Positions 4,505 through 11,086 of a stretch of 64,000 nt of DNA are shown here, in pieces. A program made the translations under genes and the position numbers. Below the pieces are notes generated by a model. That model did not search any database, had not been told where the DNA came from, and saw nothing but the letters and a program-made list of their open reading frames with translations. Numbering within the stretch: the first letter of the stretch is position 1; every line of letters begins with the position of its first letter. The stretch comes from a virus, in IMG/VR virus record IMGVR_UViG_3300044658_000058, positions 32,001 to 96,000 of that record. The stretch is one strand, 5' to 3'.

Positions 4505-4878
4505 ATAGCCTTTTTGAAATCCTCTGCGAAAGACTTAAGTCTTTTTATAGATATCACACGTTCTTTTCGGTTACGTAGTTCCTGTTCAACTTTCGCCAAA
4601 GCATCTTTACGTTCACGATCAAGCTTTGCAGTTTCCCATACAAAATCATGAAAATCTGGATCGAGTTTGATCTTTTCGCTATTGAAAACACGTCCACCAT
4701 TTGTCCTAACAACAGTAAACATATGAGTATCTTCTGAAACAGTAACATAAGTATTTTCGTAATAGATGGTGGCATGACTTCCACCAAAATCTGTTCCTTT
4801 TACAGTATTTTGAATGCAAGTATTCACCAATTCATCATAGATTTTCTGTTGTTCTTGACGATATTCTTCGCCTGTCAT
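4501..4878 (-). CDS. Hypothetical protein
   Basis: 125-aa ORF with ATGA overlaps to both neighbours. Confidence 0.7.
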   Translation of the reverse strand: MTGEEYRQEQQKIYDELVNTCIQNTVKGTDFGGSHATIYYENTYVTVSEDTHMFTVVRTNGGRVFNSEKIKLDPDFHDFVWETAKLDRERKDALAKVEQELRNRKERVISIKRLKSFAEDFKKAI

Positions 4879-5414
4879 TTACGTAGTCCCATTAGTTTGT
4901 TTGTTGAATACATGATACCTGTGCGCTTAGCACACTTCCGAACCATCATATCGACTTTGAGTTTCGAGAAACCAGCAAAGAATGGTTTGCCATCGATATG
5001 ACACATTTCGTGTTGAATGATACGGGCGGTCAAACCAGAAAGCGTGGCTTCCTTTTCCTCGCCGCTGACTGTCTGGTACTGGACCGTGATTGTCTTTGCC
5101 CGTTCAACCTTGGCAATGAGGCCGGGGAAGCTCAAACACCCTTCCTCCATCAAATCCGTTTCTGTGGACAAGGATTCGATCTTTGGATTGAACATCGGCA
5201 TGATCGATCCGGCGTCACGACCATTGCCGAATACGAAAACGGAATATGGAATGCCGATTTGGTTGGCAGAAAGGCCATAACCCTTCATTTCCGACAATGC
5301 GCTTTTCAACGTCTCGAATAGCTCATGAGCGTTCTGTGTGGCGAAATCGAACGGAATTGTGGGAATATAAAGGATAGGATTGTCGGAAGCGACTAGATCG
5401 GATTTGTTGGTCAT
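4875..5414 (-). CDS. def: Peptide deformylase
   Basis: GYGLSANQIG, EGCLS and QHEMCH motifs. Confidence 0.92.
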   Translation of the reverse strand: MTNKSDLVASDNPILYIPTIPFDFATQNAHELFETLKSALSEMKGYGLSANQIGIPYSVFVFGNGRDAGSIMPMFNPKIESLSTETDLMEEGCLSFPGLIAKVERAKTITVQYQTVSGEEKEATLSGLTARIIQHEMCHIDGKPFFAGFSKLKVDMMVRKCAKRTGIMYSTNKLMGLRK

Positions 5415-5584
5415 TCTTTGTACCTTTCTATCGCCCGTATTGCGGCTCGGGCTTCGTCTTTAAATTCTTTCCAGAGTTCGCATCGTGACGAATCTTCGGA
5501 ATTGCAAATCAGGCAGAGTCGCTTGTTGATGGTCTTGCCAGCCGCAAGACATATCTCACGACTGACTAACTCCACTTTCGACAT
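5411..5584 (-). CDS. Small Cys-containing hypothetical protein (57 aa)
   Basis: Manual translation MSKVELVSREICLAAGKTINKRLCLICNSEDSSRCELWKEFKDEARAAIRAIERYKE; its stop overlaps the def ATG (ATGA). Confidence 0.6.
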   Translation of the reverse strand: MSKVELVSREICLAAGKTINKRLCLICNSEDSSRCELWKEFKDEARAAIRAIERYKE

Positions 5585-6347
5585 GGCGATATCTCTCTTC
5601 GATTCGGAGCGGATTGCTGCGAACCATGCGTGTCCGGATGACCGGTTTTGTAGGATGATGTTCGAAAGGAATAGTCGCCAATTCCTTCAAAGTCAAGTGC
5701 CTTTCTTCCGTGACACGGGTAATTTCGGTTCCTACTCGGAAACAGGCAGCATGTTCTTCAAAGAAATCAATGCCAAACGCTTTGATCATTTCCAACTTTT
5801 CCTTTGTGGTCTTTCCCATAAGTTTGGAGTGGCCAAAAAGGAAATGTGCAGCCGATTGGACGGAATTTTTAAAGGCGTCTTGTTGCCTCCAAAGGATCAT
5901 ATTGTTGGCTTCTTCCATGGTCGGAACGTTGATAATTCGGCAATCAAACGATGGAATCGTTTTTGGTGGCTCGCCAAAATATGAACAATAAGCAAGCGTG
6001 AATTTGGCGGCACACATCGCCGCTAGGACCGATGCGAGCTTCTGAATCTTGCCATCGAACATGAACTGCGATAAACCGTGACACGGTTCCCAAATCAGCG
6101 AAATTTCATCTGACTGTGTGTACCCAAGGACAGCCTTGGTTTCATAGGCCAGATATTCGGTCGTATCCTGCATACAGGCGGACATGTCACGGTCAAATGG
6201 CCGCTTCATTCTCCGGGTAAAACTAGAGAATGAACGACCATCCAAACGAGCATAAACCGGCAGAGATGTATCAAGCTTCTGTTCCGTGAAAGGTCTTTCA
6301 TAAGCCTTCATGCGGTCACCGAAGTTGTCGTGGTGTTTTGTACTCAT
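5556..6347 (-). CDS. Thg1-like protein (tRNA-His guanylyltransferase / 3'-5' RNA polymerase family)
   Basis: RMKAYE, RLDGRSFSSFT, GYTQSDEISL, FDCR and WRQQDAFKNS motifs. Confidence 0.92.
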   Translation of the reverse strand: MSTKHHDNFGDRMKAYERPFTEQKLDTSLPVYARLDGRSFSSFTRRMKRPFDRDMSACMQDTTEYLAYETKAVLGYTQSDEISLIWEPCHGLSQFMFDGKIQKLASVLAAMCAAKFTLAYCSYFGEPPKTIPSFDCRIINVPTMEEANNMILWRQQDAFKNSVQSAAHFLFGHSKLMGKTTKEKLEMIKAFGIDFFEEHAACFRVGTEITRVTEERHLTLKELATIPFEHHPTKPVIRTRMVRSNPLRIEERYRHVESGVSQS

Positions 6348-7327
6348 GTATACTTTGTTTCAACTTTATCTGGCCATAGAGGATAGTTCACATCTTTATA
6401 GTGACGTTCATAATAATCTGGTCCATAATAAGTTTGATCTTTACTCTTCCATTCGTTATGGAATATTTCGTTGATTTCCTGTTGCGTCAAAGTGAAAGCA
6501 TCTTGCTCTTCTTTTGTCGCATGGAAATAATAATGCCGGTCACCATATGGGATTTCTGGCATCGGTTCATCCGATGCGGTGATGATCGCTTTGTCACTTA
6601 GTTTTCTGGCGAAATTGTAGTGGCGATAATTCGGATCGTGTTTAGACAGATAAACAAAAACCAAATACGGTTGCTTATTCTGTTCGATGAAATAATGGGT
6701 ATTTCTTGTGGCACCATATCCATAGTAGAATTTTTGCGTTTTGTTCAACGGATCATTTTTATCCACATCACGATATGTGAGAGATGAAACATAGAATGTC
6801 CCGATATATCGGCCATTGACGGTAGGCGATTCCACCATGTCACCGACTTCAAGCTTTTTGCGCTCTGGTGGAGCGAGGAAAGTCAGATAGCGTTCATCGT
6901 TTACGGAAATCAGATGGTTGATTGCACCGATGCGGCCCCAAAGAAATTCACCTTGGATTTCGCCTTTCAGGAAATCATTGTGGTTCAGAAGGTCGGAAAG
7001 GTTGTGAGCGGTGATTTCAAGCTGGAAACCACGAGGATCATTGATTCGGAACCATTTGTTTGAGGTTTCATATCGAGATACTGAATGATCGAAGCGAAAG
7101 CCTGACAATGGCTTGTTTTCGAGCGTGAGTGCTTCTAGGCGCTTGTCCGGCTCATTGGGATGATACAGAGCCCAATTCCAGTGCTTGCCAGCCCATTGGT
7201 CTACCGTCTCTTTGCGCTTCTGTGCAGCGGAATCGGTTCCATCCGGAACCGCAAAACCAAGAACGTCGCCATCGTGTTCAACTTTACGACCGACGTAAAG
7301 TTGTTTCGGAAAATTACAAATTTCCAC
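6344..7327 (-). CDS. Conserved hypothetical large-phage protein
   Basis: 327-aa ORF with LENKPLSGF...DPRGFQLEI..NL motif; first CDS after the permuted tRNA-like RNAs. Confidence 0.75.
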   Translation of the reverse strand: MEICNFPKQLYVGRKVEHDGDVLGFAVPDGTDSAAQKRKETVDQWAGKHWNWALYHPNEPDKRLEALTLENKPLSGFRFDHSVSRYETSNKWFRINDPRGFQLEITAHNLSDLLNHNDFLKGEIQGEFLWGRIGAINHLISVNDERYLTFLAPPERKKLEVGDMVESPTVNGRYIGTFYVSSLTYRDVDKNDPLNKTQKFYYGYGATRNTHYFIEQNKQPYLVFVYLSKHDPNYRHYNFARKLSDKAIITASDEPMPEIPYGDRHYYFHATKEEQDAFTLTQQEINEIFHNEWKSKDQTYYGPDYYERHYKDVNYPLWPDKVETKYT

Positions 7328-7354: not shown

Positions 7355-7430
7355 CGGGCGTCCTCACCAAACTAGACGAACCCGGCCATAGCGTTGTGGC
7401 CCGGTATGGGATTCGAACCCATGTTTCCCG
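7355..7430 (-). ncRNA. Circularly permuted tRNA-like element 2
   Basis: Minus strand: CGGG AAAC ATGGG-TTCGAAT-CCCAT ACCGGGCC ACAA / cgctat / GGCCGGGT TC GTCT AGTTTGGTG AGGAC G CCCG. Confidence 0.75.
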
Positions 7431-7439
7431 AGAATTCAG

Positions 7440-7514
7440 TAGGGCGTCCTATCCGCTAGACGACCTCGCCCATAAATGGTGGGCGAGGGCTGGATTCGAA
7501 CCAACGTTTCCCTA
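7440..7514 (-). ncRNA. Circularly permuted tRNA-like element 1
   Basis: Minus strand: TAGGG AAAC GTTGG-TTCGAAT-CCAGC CCTCGCCC ACCA / tttat / GGGCGAGG TC GTCT AGCGGAT AGGAC G CCCTA. Confidence 0.8.
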
Positions 7515-7521
7515 AGCTTTA

Positions 7522-7550
7522 TATATACGACTTTTAGAAAGAAATGTCAA
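7522..7550 (-). promoter_or_regulatory. Sigma70-type promoter for the permuted tRNA-like RNAs and downstream genes
   Basis: TTGACA-17 nt-TATATA; predicted +1 near 7513-7516. Confidence 0.7.
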
Positions 7551-8163
7551 CTCTTTTTTGATAAAGTGCATCACCAAAAATATGATATTTTTCTAAATCG
7601 ATTTCTTTTCTCACAAAGCCATGTTTTTCCATGAAGGCATCCACGGTGGCAACAGAAGCACTATTTTCATACATAACTTTTCGCCACACTTCCAATAGAA
7701 TATATTTAATGTTTTTAAGAGTTTCTATTCCACCATTCAAAACAAATAATTCATATCCTTGAACATCTATAACAAGAGTATTGTATATCATTTCATGATC
7801 GATGAAATATTCGTCTAAAGATGTTTGTAATATAGATTTTGGCGTAAACGATCTTTCTGGATATTCTATTAAATGATTAGTAGGTTTTAAAATTGAACTA
7901 GAAACACCATTTTTGCTTGACTCAAAAATGGTGACCGTTGAAGTTTTATCACCCAAAGCAATATTTTCAGCGATCATCTGTGGATATGGCTTTATTGTGT
8001 CCAAAAGTTCCTTGAATGGTCCTTCAAGAGGTTCAAACAATAGTACAGGAACATCTTTTTTCGCATAGAATGGAACTTCCTGTCCAATATGAGCACCGAC
8101 ATGAATTACGCCGGTGACATCTTTTCCAGACAGGTACATTTCCGCCGCTGTATCGTCTGCCAC
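7534..8163 (-). CDS. FkbM-family SAM-dependent methyltransferase
   Basis: VIHVGAHIGQE, FEP, IALG, IDVQGYELFVLNG motifs. Confidence 0.88.
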   Translation of the reverse strand: MADDTAAEMYLSGKDVTGVIHVGAHIGQEVPFYAKKDVPVLLFEPLEGPFKELLDTIKPYPQMIAENIALGDKTSTVTIFESSKNGVSSSILKPTNHLIEYPERSFTPKSILQTSLDEYFIDHEMIYNTLVIDVQGYELFVLNGGIETLKNIKYILLEVWRKVMYENSASVATVDAFMEKHGFVRKEIDLEKYHIFGDALYQKRVDISF

Positions 8164-8171
8164 GATAATTC

Positions 8172-8501
8172 CTAATTATTTGCTGTTGGGACGTTTTTGG
8201 TTGGAATATAGATCGGATAATCTAGATTTGGTTTTTCGTGCCTTTCTAAGCCTTCAAGAGCAGATATAATATCTTTTGAATTCTTTGGTGTTAGATTACC
8301 CAACAAAGCTTTTGCTGCTTTGTACAGATTCTCGTCATCGAGAATTTTACAATTTGCCAGATCAATAATATTTCTTGGATTTTTAAGAGACTGCGATGCC
8401 CACGCTTTCTCTTTATTTGAATTTACCAATATTGTCCATAAAACAGCTACCTTCTCATTCAAATCTTCTATTTGTTCTTCTAATTCTTTTATCTTATTCA
8501 T
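8172..8501 (-). CDS. Hypothetical protein
   Basis: 109-aa ORF, co-oriented, N-terminal coiled coil. Confidence 0.65.
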   Translation of the reverse strand: MNKIKELEEQIEDLNEKVAVLWTILVNSNKEKAWASQSLKNPRNIIDLANCKILDDENLYKAAKALLGNLTPKNSKDIISALEGLERHEKPNLDYPIYIPTKNVPTANN

Positions 8502-8513
8502 CTATTTAATACC

Positions 8514-9332
8514 TTATGCAAAATCAGTTGAAGAACTGGCTACTGTCATGTTAACGAGTGTCCAGTTTATGTTGTTACCTGAAGAATCAGAACCCAATGT
8601 TGTAACAGAAGAATTATCTTCAAAACGAAGATAGAAACCCTTTGCGCCAAAAGTTCCTGTATATTCAATCGGCTCACTTAACGTAGCAAAATCAGAGGGC
8701 GTGAGTTGTTGTCCGTCAACAAAAATGAATTCATCCAATAGACCATCATAAAAGCTACCGGAAGATTCATCACGACCTATAACAGTGACAGAATAATTAT
8801 TATTAATAGACGCATTAGCATTTAGAGTATAATCTATGTTTGTACTGAACGATGTAATTTCTGTTCCGTCAACATATATTCTAGTTCTCAAAGATGCTGT
8901 AGATTGTGAAGTGTCAATAGCTACAACCAAATGATGCCAAGAAGAATCTACACCGAAAGAAGCAGTACTTTCTTTCCTCATAATAAACGACCCAGATAAT
9001 CTATCTATGACAAGTAGTTTATCCAGATTATCGAATCCTATAAAGAATCTATTATTCGTATCTGTTCCAGATGTGAATATTCTTTGAAAACTGGCACCAG
9101 ATTCTCTTTTGAAAAACGTGCTAATCGTAAATGTTTTTCTTGAAGTTCCTCCGGCCCCCCAAGATAGGGTCAAACACTGTGAACTTGACGATTCAAAATC
9201 AAGACTTCTTGTGTTAAATGGTTCCAAAAGACCTAAAAAGTCCCCAACGCTTACAAAGCTAAATGTCCCATCACTTTGAAGAATATACAAGTAATCGTTG
9301 TTGGTCGGTGTTATAGAGGGTATGGTTGGAAT
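8514..9332 (-). CDS. LamG/concanavalin A-like domain protein (probably virion-associated)
   Basis: FTISTFFKR, WHHLVVAIDT, RIYVDG, DGQQLTPSDF, GFYLRF..LGSDSSGN; start at TTG 9290 or ATT 9332. Confidence 0.8.
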   Translation of the reverse strand: MPTIPSITPTNNDYLYILQSDGTFSFVSVGDFLGLLEPFNTRSLDFESSSSQCLTLSWGAGGTSRKTFTISTFFKRESGASFQRIFTSGTDTNNRFFIGFDNLDKLLVIDRLSGSFIMRKESTASFGVDSSWHHLVVAIDTSQSTASLRTRIYVDGTEITSFSTNIDYTLNANASINNNYSVTVIGRDESSGSFYDGLLDEFIFVDGQQLTPSDFATLSEPIEYTGTFGAKGFYLRFEDNSSVTTLGSDSSGNNINWTLVNMTVASSSTDFA

Positions 9333-9373: not shown

Positions 9374-11086
9374 TCAAAAGGAATCCATTGAAGAAAAATT
9401 ACCTTTTTTCACCACTTTCATAACCCGGTCAAAGTTATCCACCATGTTCTCACGATGAGAGATGACGATGATGTTGGTATCTTCACCCATAGAGCGCAGG
9501 ATTTCGAACACATATTTGATACCATCTTCGTCCAGAGAGGAGTCACCAACTTCGTCAAGGATCAATAGATTAGTGGCCATGGAATTCTTCTTTTTTGCAA
9601 TTTGCCGCCAAGCAAAAAGAATAGCCAAATCAATGCGCTGCTTTTCACCTTCCGAAAAATTTTCATAAGAGAAATCATCCCGGTAACGAGATTTGATCGA
9701 CTCTTGAAAATTTTCGTCCAGATTGAAGCTCACATAGAAATCCATAGCAGACAGATATTCGTTAATAAGCTCATTCATATAAGGAATGTAGCGCTGTACG
9801 ATAGCCGTCTTTAGGCCGGTGTCTTTCAGCATGAGCGCCGCCACGTTTTCGACTTCACGTTCATTCATCAACTTCTGTTTCGTTGCGAAATATTCTGTGA
9901 CTAGCTTACGAGCCTTTTTCAGATTGGCCTTGGTGGCTTCCTCTTGCGTGGCATCTAGGTCATCCACCAAATCAGTTTCCAGTTTGGCGATGAACTTGTT
10001 GTTGATGTGGACGGAGGATTGAAGCTCGGATATCCTACGATTGGTTCGGTCAAGAGCGTCGATAACCGCAGCCTTCTTTTCCAACGTTTCGGCAATCTGG
10101 GTTAGCTTCGCCTTTTCGGTGGCGATGCTTTCTAACAATGGCTCAAACGCCGTGGTGTGATTGTGAATTTCTTCGGCCTTGAAAGTTCCGTCGATGCTCT
10201 GTCTACATGTCGGACAATGGTCGTTTTTCTCATAGAAAGCGACACGGGTTTTGTGTTCCCGCACCTTTTGTTCCATGGTCTGGGTGAACGACTCTATCGT
10301 CTTCTGCTTTTCGACAAGCTTGGCAAACTTTGCCTTTTTGTCGTCAAGAGTGTCCTTTTCCGTCAGAAGCTCCGTTATTTGCTTCTGTGTCATTTCGTTC
10401 TCACCAAGCAGACGGTCAATTTCAGAACGGGCACGGTCCTTTCGATCCTGTTTCTGTTTATTGATAGATTCAAGAAAGTCTTCATTCATTTTGACTTTCT
10501 CTTGTTCGATCTTCAAGAATCCTTCTATCTCTTTAAGGTGTTCCCGGTTTTCTTCTTGCTGTTCTTTTAGCAAAGCATTCATTCGAGAAAATACAGAGAT
10601 ATCAAGCAAATCTTCGATGATTTCACGACGCTGTTGCGCCGTCAAACGCATGAAAGGAACGTAATTGTTCGATCCGAGAACGACAATCTGCTTGAAAGAA
10701 TTGAAGTTCAAGTTCAGAACATTCTCTTCGATATATTTCTGATAATCCTTAGACGAAGCCGACTGGTTAATCAATGTTCCGTCCATATAGATTTCGAACA
10801 CGGCAGGCTTAATGCCACGTCGGATCATGTAGGTTTTGCCCTTCGTCTCGAATTCGATTTCTACCAGAAGATTCTTGCCATTGATGGAGTTCACCAATTG
10901 CGGCTTATTGATCTTGCGGAAATCCTTGCCGAACAACGCAAAAGTCAGCGCTGAAATCATGGTTGATTTGCCAGCGCCGTTTTGTCCGATGATCAATGTT
11001 CTTGGGTGTGAACTTAAGTCTATTTCGACGGGATCATTGCCGGTAGCGAGAAAATTTTTGTATAATAGACGTTTAAAAATTACCAA
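9374..11086 (-). CDS. gp46: Recombination exonuclease ATPase subunit (Rad50/SbcC-like)
   Basis: GQNGAGKST, CPTC zinc hook, FSEGEKQRIDLA, LILDEV. Confidence 0.95.
   Translation of the reverse strand: MVIFKRLLYKNFLATGNDPVEIDLSSHPRTLIIGQNGAGKSTMISALTFALFGKDFRKINKPQLVNSINGKNLLVEIEFETKGKTYMIRRGIKPAVFEIYMDGTLINQSASSKDYQKYIEENVLNLNFNSFKQIVVLGSNNYVPFMRLTAQQRREIIEDLLDISVFSRMNALLKEQQEENREHLKEIEGFLKIEQEKVKMNEDFLESINKQKQDRKDRARSEIDRLLGENEMTQKQITELLTEKDTLDDKKAKFAKLVEKQKTIESFTQTMEQKVREHKTRVAFYEKNDHCPTCRQSIDGTFKAEEIHNHTTAFEPLLESIATEKAKLTQIAETLEKKAAVIDALDRTNRRISELQSSVHINNKFIAKLETDLVDDLDATQEEATKANLKKARKLVTEYFATKQKLMNEREVENVAALMLKDTGLKTAIVQRYIPYMNELINEYLSAMDFYVSFNLDENFQESIKSRYRDDFSYENFSEGEKQRIDLAILFAWRQIAKKKNSMATNLLILDEVGDSSLDEDGIKYVFEILRSMGEDTNIIVISHRENMVDNFDRVMKVVKKGNFSSMDSF

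What the first reader, a model, noticed from the sequence alone, without database searches (positions are those of the whole stretch)
7355..7550. Tandem circularly permuted, anticodon-less tRNA genes directly behind a promoter
Seen: the minus strand has two consecutive units in the order 3' tRNA half, short linker, 5' tRNA half. Unit 1 (7514-7440) is TAGGG-AAAC-[T arm GTTGG/CCAGC]-CCTCGCCC-ACCA, tttat, GGGCGAGG-TC-[D arm]-G-CCCTA. Unit 2 (7430-7355) is CGGG-AAAC-[ATGGG/CCCAT]-ACCGGGCC-ACAA, cgctat, GGCCGGGT-TC-[D arm]-G-CCCG. Acceptor and anticodon stems pair only within each permuted unit (8/8 and 7/8 bp; 5 and 4 bp), and the two units differ by compensatory changes. The conventional reading (5' half 1 plus 3' half 2) gives no acceptor stem. 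The break is where the anticodon loop should be. TTGACA-17-TATATA puts +1 at the start of unit 1. Both linkers end in TAT before G1, as does the spacer of this phage's two-piece tmRNA. Known: the D/T arms resemble tRNA-Glu; permuted tRNA genes are described in some algae and archaea, and a permuted tRNA-like module occurs in Ro60-bound YrlA RNAs, but the long Ro-binding stem is missing and no Ro60 gene is in this window. Inference: RNase P-type processing would give a three-piece, two-headed tRNA mimic joined by a 9-nt linker. It could be a decoy for anticodon nucleases or other tRNA-targeting defences, or a substrate for ligation or repair.
Basis: partly seen in the sequence, partly recalled or inferred. 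Interest (0 to 1): 0.93.

Follow-up and report, generated by a model that had tools for sequence, protein, structure and literature searches.

The report
Ro60-less tRNA-body mimic RNAs in phage
Behind a conserved promoter, this T4-like phage encodes two tandem small RNAs shaped like tRNAs with no anticodon loop and a loop-closed acceptor stem, the same design as the tRNA-like part of bacterial YrlA Y RNAs but without the Ro60 protein or its binding stem.

Summary
On the minus strand, 7514-7440 and 7430-7355 each fold as a cloverleaf. Each has a T arm, an 8-bp acceptor stem closed by a 9-10-nt loop, a tRNA-Glu-like D arm and an open 4-5-bp "anticodon" stem. A TTGACA-17-TATATA promoter lies just upstream.

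The element is conserved. Two related phages carry one copy each, with compensatory changes. About 25 further units occur in other viral and metagenomic contigs, often inside phage tRNA arrays and sometimes in tandem. In 27 units, 96% of pair cells are paired, against 68% after shuffling.

The architecture is not new. It is the "circularly permuted tRNA" domain of YrlA Y RNAs (Chen 2014; Wang 2018). My model also detects Ro60-linked YrlA arrays in phages Bxz1, CcrPW and Bambus.

What differs here is that neither this phage nor four others carrying units encodes Ro60. The long Ro60-binding stem is also missing.

Most relatives cap the acceptor with tetraloops. This lineage instead keeps an A-C-(C/A)-A ... 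UAU|G loop, which suggests RNase P nicking as in M. smegmatis YrlA. That step is inferred, not shown. The binding partner and the function remain unknown.

Verdict: a real RNA and a new variant of a known kind. The scan had already noted this stretch.

The parts
7522..7550 (-). Sigma-70-type promoter: -35 TTGACA at 7550-7545, 17-nt spacer, -10 TATATA at 7527-7522. The predicted start is about 7518-7514, which is 0-4 nt before unit 1.
   Evidence: It is the only match in the window, with 0.01 expected by chance. Nearly the same promoter sequence stands before the single unit in relatives L001 and L002. The start site is inferred, not measured.
7440..7514 (-). tRNA-like unit 1. Base-stem 3' strand, 4-nt variable loop, T arm and acceptor 3' strand ending in ACCA occupy 7514-7477. 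The loop linker is 7476-7472. Acceptor 5' strand, D arm and base-stem 5' strand occupy 7471-7440. The acceptor has 8 bp and the base stem 5 bp.
   Evidence: Sequence read; fold; 91.6 bits with R1 and 81.2 bits with R2; ARAGORN calls a tRNA after in-silico rejoining. The nucleotides needed for the L-shape are all present by eye: U8, A14, G15 with C48, G18 G19, T54 with A58, G53 with C61.
7431..7439 (-). 9-nt single-stranded linker joining the 5' half of unit 1 to the 3' half of unit 2.
   Evidence: Sequence read. Short linkers between tandem units recur elsewhere: 6 nt in L045 and about 30 nt in L027.
7355..7430 (-). tRNA-like unit 2. The 3' half ending in ACAA is 7430-7394, the loop linker is 7393-7388 and the 5' half is 7387-7355. 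The acceptor has 7 of 8 pairs (one G.G mismatch) and the base stem 4 bp. It is the orthologue of the single units in L012 (87% identical) and L002 (75%).
6344..7327 (-). Co-oriented downstream gene of 327 aa and unknown function. No terminator separates it from unit 2 in this window.
   Evidence: No Pfam family. PHROG families of unknown function match the N-terminal ~165 residues. It is 68% identical in L001/L002 at the same position. The family is large, with 1609 clusters. The AlphaFold2 model has pLDDT 72.7 and gives only weak small-beta-barrel matches with Z of 5 or less.
5556..6347 (-). Thg1-like 3'-5' nucleotidyltransferase gene (263 aa), overlapping the end of the 327-aa gene.
   Evidence: Pfam PF04446, E 8e-28; phrog_4717, E 8e-71. 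Synteny is kept in L011 and L012.
4875..5414 (-). Peptide deformylase gene (179 aa), further down the same tightly packed gene string.
   Evidence: Pfam PF01327, E 1.7e-36.

Best explanation
The stretch encodes a trans-acting structured non-coding RNA made of two tRNA-body mimics. Each unit descends from a tRNA-Glu-like gene. Each keeps everything that builds the L-shape: the T arm, the D arm, the short variable loop, the acceptor helix and the top of the anticodon stem. Both business ends of a tRNA are gone. There is no anticodon loop, and the acceptor stem is closed by a loop.

This is the same module as the tRNA-like domain of YrlA Y RNAs. Here it stands alone, with no Ro60-binding stem, in phages with no Ro60 gene. 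That much is shown.

The following is inferred:
- The RNA is made early, from the conserved sigma-70-type promoter.
- In this lineage host RNase P nicks each acceptor loop just 5' of the invariant G, after UAU. The 3' tail is then trimmed or rebuilt to CCA. The pieces stay held together by the 8-bp and 4-5-bp helices.
- The RNA works by occupying or recruiting a protein that reads the tRNA elbow and acceptor/T helix rather than the anticodon. The identity of that partner is unknown.
For: Structure:
- Both units fold as cloverleaves and are called tRNAs after in-silico de-permutation.

Conservation with covariation:
- Orthologues occur in two related phages (L002 and L012).
- On 27 units from different contigs, 96.1% of pair cells are paired, against 68.4% after shuffling and 35-54% when partners are slid. 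All 8 acceptor pairs show changes on both sides (the 10-unit set is).

Family context:
- Units sit in phage tRNA arrays.
- Others are stand-alone genes with their own promoter and terminator, as in L002 and L071. This argues for a free-standing RNA.

Link to YrlA:
- Rfam's YrlA model aligns T arm, closed acceptor and D arm of unit 1.
- My family model R2 finds the known Ro60-linked RNAs in Bxz1, 190 nt upstream of the Ro60 gene gp220.
- It also finds unannotated arrays directly upstream of the TROVE genes in CcrPW and Bambus.

Ro60 independence:
- No TROVE match in the own genome or in G001, G002, G004, G005 and G006, either by HMM or, for all of these except G006, with the CcrPW Ro60 protein as query. 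The same HMM search did detect the divergent phage Ro60s.
- Base stems are 4-5 bp here, against long repeated stems in CcrPW.

Nicking:
- In the four close homologues the stems vary, but the loop A-C-(C/A)-A, 2-3 nt, UAU and the closing G:C pair are invariant.
- The phage's own two-piece tmRNA junction has the same ACCA ... UAU|G layout.
- M. smegmatis YrlA is cleaved by RNase P and gains CCA in vivo (PMC4201824).
Against: - Expression, RNA ends and nicking are therefore unproven.
- Most family members cap the acceptor with UUCG-type tetraloops or an extra hairpin and carry no CCA. Nicking cannot be the family's general mode of action.
- Two of the four close homologues read ACAA rather than ACCA.
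- In this window no terminator separates the RNA from the downstream genes, so a cis role is not excluded.
- The own genome is only 85% complete.
- My search patterns demanded a tRNA-Glu-like D arm, so the apparent tRNA-Glu ancestry of the wider family is partly an ascertainment effect.
Confidence: 0.6

Rival explanations
1. It is a cis-acting leader of the downstream operon (327-aa gene, Thg1-like, deformylase). The tRNA-shaped folds would serve as RNase P/RNase E processing signals or as a 5' stabiliser that sets the end and lifetime of the mRNA.
For: In this window the units lie between the promoter and the first gene, with no terminator and a Shine-Dalgarno sequence 20 nt after unit 2. The gene string is tightly packed. 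tRNA-like folds used as RNase P processing signals are known, for example MALAT1/mascRNA, cited in 10.1101/312249.
Against: In both relatives a terminator hairpin follows the RNA before the next gene. L071 is a promoter-unit-terminator gene on its own. Other members sit between tRNAs with nothing to lead.
Confidence: 0.12
2. It is a substrate or cofactor of the neighbouring Thg1-like 3'-5' polymerase. After RNase P nicking, the 5' end of each 5' half faces a 3' overhang that the enzyme could fill or extend. The invariant terminal G:C pair recalls G-1:C73 of tRNA-His.
For: The order RNA, 327-aa gene, Thg1-like gene is kept in three phages. The terminal pair is G:C in all four close units while the other seven pairs vary. 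G005 and XaC1 carry both a unit and a Thg1 gene.
Against: The three syntenic phages are close relatives, so the synteny may be inherited rather than selected. In G005 the Thg1 gene lies 67 kb from the units. G004 and Bxz1 have units but no Thg1. No unit lies within about 2.5 kb of the Thg1 gene of the one cultured phage where that neighbourhood was scanned, Variovorax phage V45v66. After the 8-bp stem comes A-CCA, one base more than in tRNA-His.
Confidence: 0.1
3. It is a genuine Y RNA of the YrlA type that works with a Ro60 protein. That protein would be encoded by the host or in the unsequenced 15% of the phage genome.
For: It has the same tRNA-like module as YrlA. Y RNA arrays upstream of Ro60 exist in other alphaproteobacterial phages, CcrPW and Bambus. 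The own genome is 85% complete.
Against: There is no long terminal stem and none of the repeated stem motifs seen in Ro60-linked units. Two related genomes rated 100% complete lack TROVE. YrlA genes lie within 4 kb of Ro60 on the same strand (PMC4201824), whereas the genes here are different ones.
Confidence: 0.08
4. They are true circularly permuted tRNA genes. The transcript would mature into a decoding tRNA by end-joining and opening of the acceptor loop, as in Cyanidioschyzon merolae.
For: The 3' half precedes the 5' half. The ACCA and UAU|G signals sit where the mature ends would be. Rejoined halves pass ARAGORN.
Against: No anticodon loop is encoded. The flanks differ between homologues and give no consistent 7-nt loop. 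There is no bulge-helix-bulge motif. No RtcB or T4-type RNA ligase was found in the genome. Tetraloop-capped relatives could never be opened.
Confidence: 0.03
5. They are decayed remnants of tandem tRNA-Glu genes with no function.
For: Tandem identical tRNA genes do imitate the permuted pattern. Four of five genome hits and about 14 metagenome hits were such false positives.
Against: Here no 5' half precedes unit 1 and no 3' half follows unit 2. The two acceptor stems differ, so the conventional reading fails. Pairing is kept through double changes across phages whose flanking proteins are only 68% identical. The promoter is conserved.
Confidence: 0.02

Closest known systems
[quoted passage not shown] 2014, PMC4201824; Wang et al. 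2018, bioRxiv 10.1101/312249)
   Same: The order of elements is identical: base stem, variable loop, T arm, loop-closed acceptor stem, D arm, base stem. There is no anticodon loop and no free CCA end. Acceptor length varies between members. Phage members occur in arrays. My family model cross-detects Ro60-linked YrlA RNAs.
   Different: There is no long terminal helix carrying a Ro60 site, only 4-5 bp. No Ro60/TROVE gene is found nearby or anywhere in the six genomes and contigs searched. The score is 16.9 bits against a cut-off of 69. Many members lie inside tRNA arrays or are stand-alone genes.
Mycobacterium smegmatis YrlA, the processed form (PMC4201824)
   Same: The acceptor stem is of tRNA-like length and is followed by a single-stranded loop. 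In M. smegmatis RNase P cleaves at the tRNA 5' site and CA is added, giving a two-piece RNA with a CCA end. The loop layout in the window lineage fits the same path.
   Different: The M. smegmatis RNA has 7 bp and is bound to Ro60. Here the stem has 8 bp, there is no Ro60, and cleavage has not been shown.
Circularly permuted tRNA genes of Cyanidioschyzon merolae and some archaea (Soma et al. 2007, as cited in 10.1101/312249)
   Same: The 3' half is encoded before the 5' half. In the precursor the acceptor stem is closed by a loop.
   Different: Those precursors contain the anticodon loop and are circularised by the splicing endonuclease and ligase to give working tRNAs. Here there is no anticodon and no such machinery.
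Two-piece (permuted) tmRNA of Alphaproteobacteria, also encoded by this phage at 34376-34720
   Same: The permuted acceptor has the order ACCA, spacer ending UAU, then G1. It is a tRNA mimic without an anticodon.
   Different: tmRNA has a tag reading frame, pseudoknots and the G3:U70 alanine identity pair. The units here have none of these.
Phage T4 stable RNAs species 1 and 2 (RNA C and RNA D) in the tRNA cluster (from my own knowledge, not checked here)
   Same: They are small stable RNAs with tRNA-like features, encoded among the tRNA genes of T4-type phages. Their function is unknown.
   Different: As far as I recall, those RNAs have open acceptor-like ends rather than a closed acceptor. 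No sequence comparison was made here.

Membership tests
YrlA / Y RNA (RF02553) | tRNA-like domain in the order T arm, loop-closed acceptor stem, D arm, without an anticodon loop | tested here: met
   Fold; Rfam YrlA alignment over model positions 30-81; covariation; R2 cross-detects Ro60-linked YrlA RNAs.
YrlA / Y RNA (RF02553) | Long helix formed by the 5' and 3' ends that carries the Ro60-binding site | tested here: not met
   The base stem has only 5 bp (unit 1) or 4 bp (unit 2), and the flanks do not pair. Ro60-linked CcrPW units have long flanking stems with repeated motifs.
YrlA / Y RNA (RF02553) | Encoded within about 4 kb of a Ro60 (TROVE) gene and on the same strand | tested here: not met
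   No PF05731 match in G000, G001, G002, G004, G005 or G006. No match with the CcrPW Ro60 protein as query (G006 not included). The same HMM search finds TROVE in CcrPW, Bambus and Atu_ph07. Caveat: G000 is 85% complete.
YrlA / Y RNA (RF02553) | Reaches Rfam's gathering score of 69 bits | tested here: not met
   16.9 bits, E 0.73. This test is weak, because the accepted Bxz1 YrlA scores only 32.5 bits.
YrlA / Y RNA (RF02553) | Physically bound by Ro60 | not testable with these tools
   This needs immunoprecipitation or a binding assay.
Canonical tRNA (RF00005) | Contiguous cloverleaf with an anticodon arm and an open acceptor end | tested here: not met
   ARAGORN finds none here. Rfam gives 25.3 bits, below the cut-off of 29, for the chimeric reading without acceptor pairing. 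The conventional reading is rejected.
Circularly permuted tRNA genes (C. merolae type) | 3' half encoded upstream of the 5' half, with the acceptor closed by an intervening loop | tested here: met
Circularly permuted tRNA genes (C. merolae type) | The precursor ends carry the anticodon loop and a bulge-helix-bulge junction, so that end-joining restores a decoding tRNA | tested here: not met
   The flanks show no conserved 7-nt loop and no extended helix. No RtcB or T4 Rnl1 was found (the Rnl1 search had no positive control).
Two-piece tmRNA | Tag-peptide reading frame and the G3:U70 alanine identity pair | tested here: not met
   There is no room for a reading frame in 75 nt. The third acceptor pairs are G:C, C:G and A:U. 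The phage's real tmRNA lies elsewhere.

The most novel reading that the evidence does not exclude
Phages carry a Ro60-independent class of minimal tRNA-body RNAs. In this lineage host RNase P opens them into CCA-ended, anticodon-less two-piece tRNAs. These would serve as a dedicated substrate or cofactor for the co-transcribed Thg1-like 3'-5' polymerase, or as bait for host enzymes that attack tRNA acceptor ends. If so, they would reveal the long-sought partner of the YrlA tRNA-like domain.
Probability: 0.15. Interest if true: 0.85.

Novelty: new variant of a known kind. Interest (0 to 1): 0.6.

Why it matters
The tRNA-like domain of YrlA Y RNAs has been known since 2014, and its structure was solved in 2018. 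What it binds is still unknown. It has only been studied as an appendage of the Ro60 particle.

The same module now appears on its own in phages without Ro60. It is sometimes duplicated in tandem, and often sits as an extra "gene" inside tRNA arrays. This suggests the module has a function of its own, which Y RNAs may have borrowed.

It also means that phage tRNA arrays hold unannotated non-decoding members that standard tRNA finders skip. Examples in cultured phages are Bxz1 95755-95832 and XaC1 328922-328988, so the question can be tested at the bench.

Tried and rejected
- BLASTN of the locus (1.3 kb) and of unit 2 against 50,697 cultured phage records found nothing. gp46 shows that the nearest cultured relatives are cyanomyoviruses at 44% identity.
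- My first pattern scan was too narrow and returned mostly ordinary tandem tRNA genes.
- Tandem identical tRNA-Glu genes imitate the permuted signature. They had to be filtered out with ARAGORN.
- 327-aa protein: no Pfam family, no PDB sequence match, no Foldseek match. VIA-align gave only Z of 5 or less, to small beta-barrels. Its homologues in PAK_P2, Phosso and Kaldavass have no tRNA-like RNA nearby. I therefore dropped the idea that it is a general protein partner of the RNA.
- A general Thg1 link was rejected. G004 and Bxz1 have units but no Thg1, and in G005 the two are 67 kb apart.
- Alanine or histidine identity was considered and rejected by eye. There is no G3:U70, and there is one base too many before CCA.
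- No RtcB and no CCA-adding enzyme were found in the own genome. T4 Rnl1 was also not found, but that search had no positive control.
- Literature searches for phage permuted tRNA-like RNAs, decoys and tRNA-array oddities found no description of a Ro60-less class.

Full report
**What is there**

Read on the minus strand, the sequence has this layout:
- A perfect -35 hexamer at 7550-7545, a 17-nt spacer and TATATA at 7527-7522.
- Seven bases later, unit 1 at 7514-7440.
- A 9-nt linker.
- Unit 2 at 7430-7355.
- Twenty bases further on, a Shine-Dalgarno sequence and the GTG of a 327-aa gene.

Each unit runs in this order: base-stem 3' strand, a 4-nt variable loop, a T arm with the canonical T-loop, and an 8-nt acceptor 3' strand. 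Next comes ACCA (unit 1) or ACAA (unit 2), and 5-6 further bases ending in UAU. The unit ends with the acceptor 5' strand, UC, a tRNA-Glu-type D arm, G26 and the base-stem 5' strand.

RNAfold returns exactly this cloverleaf for each unit, at -32.3 and -27.5 kcal/mol. All nucleotides that make the tRNA L-shape are in place: U8, A14, G15 with C48, G18 G19, T54 with A58, and G53 with C61 (read directly from the sequence).

ARAGORN and Rfam call no tRNA here. The conventional reading across the linker scores 25.3 bits, below the tRNA cut-off of 29, and has no acceptor pairing. When I rejoined the halves of each unit around an artificial 7-nt loop, ARAGORN accepted all four tested units. It rejected the natural conventional reading.

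**It is conserved and its pairing co-varies**

The 327-aa protein and the Thg1-like protein led to two related uncultured phages, of 256 kb and 196 kb.
- Both carry one unit at the same place.
- L002 has nearly the same promoter. Its unit ends with a terminator hairpin.
- L012 has a terminator about 100 nt downstream of the unit.
- Unit 2 is 87% identical to the L012 unit and 75% to the L002 unit. Unit 1 is the divergent copy, at 68-72%.

Among these four units seven acceptor pairs change in a compensatory way. The closing G:C pair, the preceding UAU and the A-C-(C/A)-A stay fixed.

I built a covariance model from the first three units and ran pattern-seeded scans of IMG/VR, GTDB genomes and JGI metagenomes. 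These found about 25 further distinct units that ARAGORN does not call as tRNAs.
- On 27 units, 96.1% of pair cells are paired. The figure is 68.4% after shuffling and 35-54% when partners are slid.
- 16 of 22 pairs change on both sides, including all eight acceptor pairs.
- The alignment was fitted to the model, which flatters these numbers. The margin is nevertheless large.
- One caveat had to be handled: tandem identical tRNA-Glu genes produce the same signature. I removed these hits by checking for overlapping ARAGORN tRNAs.

**What the family looks like**

- Units lie inside phage tRNA arrays, as in L022, L025, L027, L008 and L052.
- Others are stand-alone genes with their own promoter and terminator, as in L071 and L002.
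- Tandem pairs recur in L027/L049, L045 and L047.
- Acceptor stems have 6-9 bp.
- In most members the acceptor is capped by a UUCG-type tetraloop or an extra hairpin, with no CCA.
- Only a minority have a CCA-like loop: this lineage, L056, L071 and L022.
- Second units found by the model rather than by my pattern have other D arms. The tRNA-Glu look is therefore partly a product of how I searched.

**What it is related to**

The architecture is that of the tRNA-like domain of YrlA. This is a Y RNA bound by the bacterial Ro60 protein and found next to Ro60 genes in 254 bacteria and 22 phages (PMC4201824). [quoted passage not shown] It also says they lack the anticodon loop, and that the partner of this domain is unknown (10.1101/312249).

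Rfam's YrlA model aligns T arm, closed acceptor and D arm of unit 1, but at only 16.9 bits. That score is not very telling, because the accepted YrlA of mycobacteriophage Bxz1 scores just 32.5 bits against a cut-off of 69.

My broader model R2 gave these results in cultured phages:
- It finds the Bxz1 RNA 190 nt upstream of the Ro60 gene gp220.
- In Caulobacter phage CcrPW it finds five tandem units in an unannotated 1.2-kb gap, directly upstream of a TROVE gene.
- It finds two such units in Brevundimonas phage Bambus.

The Ro60-linked units have long flanking stems with repeated motifs. The window units have 4-5 bp and unpaired flanks.

No TROVE gene is found in the own genome (85% complete). 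None is found in the two relatives rated 100% complete, in the complete 70-kb G004, in G005 or in the fragment G006. This holds by HMM. It also holds with the CcrPW Ro60 protein as query, run on all of these except G006. The same HMM search does detect the divergent phage Ro60s.

Of the defining YrlA features tested here, the tRNA-like domain is met. The Ro60-binding stem and the Ro60 linkage are not met, and Ro60 binding itself could not be tested. I therefore do not file the RNA as a Y RNA. I file it as a stand-alone version of the Y RNA's tRNA-like module.

**How it most likely works**

Shown:
- It is a conserved, structured, non-decoding tRNA-body mimic.
- It sits behind a conserved promoter.
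- It exists independently of Ro60.

Inferred step 1, about 55% likely: in this lineage RNase P nicks the acceptor loop.
- The loop is 9-10 nt and single-stranded.
- It keeps A-C-(C/A)-A and ends in UAU before an invariant G. From my own knowledge, U at -1 is the base bacterial RNase P prefers.
- The phage's own two-piece tmRNA, which must be processed, has the same ACCA ... UAU|G junction.
- M. smegmatis YrlA is cleaved exactly so and gains CCA in vivo (PMC4201824).
- The ACAA variant is no obstacle. The phage's tRNA-Ala gene also lacks an encoded CCA, so the host CCA-adding enzyme must be in use. The phage itself encodes none.

Inferred step 2, identity of the partner open: the RNA acts in trans by occupying or recruiting a protein that reads the elbow and the acceptor/T helix.
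- A decoy for anticodon nucleases is unlikely, since the arm they read is absent.
- Aminoacylation looks unlikely. There is no G3:U70, and there is one base too many for tRNA-His geometry.

**Neighbours**

The promoter is followed by a packed string of genes: the 327-aa gene, a Thg1-like gene, a 57-aa ORF and a peptide deformylase gene.

The order RNA, 327-aa gene, Thg1-like gene is kept in three phages, but these are close relatives. Elsewhere the RNA and Thg1 are unlinked or Thg1 is absent.

The 327-aa protein belongs to a large phage family of unknown function. Members of it in other phages have no such RNA nearby. Its model gives no convincing fold match.

A role for Thg1 on the nicked RNA, prompted by the invariant terminal G:C pair, stays a minority hypothesis.

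**Novelty and verdict**

The topology and even the RNase P/CCA processing route are published for YrlA, so the finding is not categorically new. I found no description of the following:
- a minimal, Ro60-independent form;
- its spread through phage tRNA arrays;
- its tandem arrangement behind a promoter.

Cultured phages with unannotated units make it testable: Bxz1 at 95755-95832 and the Ro60-less XaC1 at 328922-328988.

Expression could not be checked.

Interest 0.6; new variant of a known kind.

Noticed in passing
L095:456-533 (Mycobacterium phage Bxz1, NC_004687 95755-95832, + strand): An unannotated closed-acceptor tRNA-like unit (35.3 bits with R2) fills the 124-nt gap between the annotated tRNA-Met and tRNA-Cys. 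It has a 7-bp acceptor and a loop beginning with CCA. It is separate from the YrlA next to the Ro60 gene at 130 kb. Its flanks can pair further.
   Followed up: partly
L113:760-1700 (Caulobacter phage CcrPW, MH588545 about 116.06-117.0 kb, minus strand): Five tandem YrlA-like units lie in a 1.2-kb gap that is unannotated apart from one small + strand ORF, gp147. The gap is directly upstream of gp146c, which is annotated as hypothetical but matches TROVE (Ro60). Each unit is flanked by long stems with repeated motifs. Brevundimonas phage Bambus has the same layout at 216.8-217.1 kb.
   Followed up: partly
L122:1023-1089 (Xanthomonas phage XaC1, OR258281 328922-328988): A minimal closed-acceptor unit (38.1 bits) lies in an AT-rich intergenic region with repeated promoter-like motifs, upstream of the head maturation protease gene. 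This cultured jumbo phage has Thg1 but no TROVE match.
   Followed up: partly
L002:3929-3990 and L012:2860-3000: The single-stranded 3' trailers between the unit and its terminator both contain a UCCUCC stretch that looks like an anti-Shine-Dalgarno sequence. This could be a base-pairing seed or a coincidence.
   Followed up: no
window 7534-9290 (minus strand): Compared with L002, three genes are inserted between the gp46-like gene (9374-11086) and the RNA promoter. They are a concanavalin/LamG-like protein gene, a 109-aa ORF and an FkbM-type methyltransferase gene.
   Followed up: partly
L005:9024-9317 and L007:990-1283 (minus strand; L005 is a 233,234-bp IMG/VR record of a complete phage genome): An odd tRNA-like gene has two T arms between matching acceptor strands. 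It is followed by a tRNA interrupted by an insert of about 60 nt.
   Followed up: no
L008:3860-4007 (minus strand): A closed-acceptor unit in a large tRNA array has a 28-nt insert where the variable loop should be. It scores 34.7 bits over the full length of Rfam's YrlA model. The contig is only 20% complete, so Ro60 status is unknown.
   Followed up: no
L036:1685-2260 (Verrucomicrobiae MAG, CAWJVG010000017.1): A good family member (63.9 bits, 7-nt loop, no CCA) lies in a run of tRNA-like sequences that ARAGORN does not call as tRNAs.
   Followed up: no
own genome C1 about 109,908 (minus strand), outside the window: A tRNA-type T arm plus acceptor 3' end that ARAGORN does not call. Earlier notes of this scan describe it as a tRNA-Phe split by a 146-nt insert.
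   Followed up: no
L025:634-706: Rfam freshwater-2 RNA motif above its gathering score (58.2 bits against 49.9), in the same contig as a unit and a large tRNA array.
   Followed up: no
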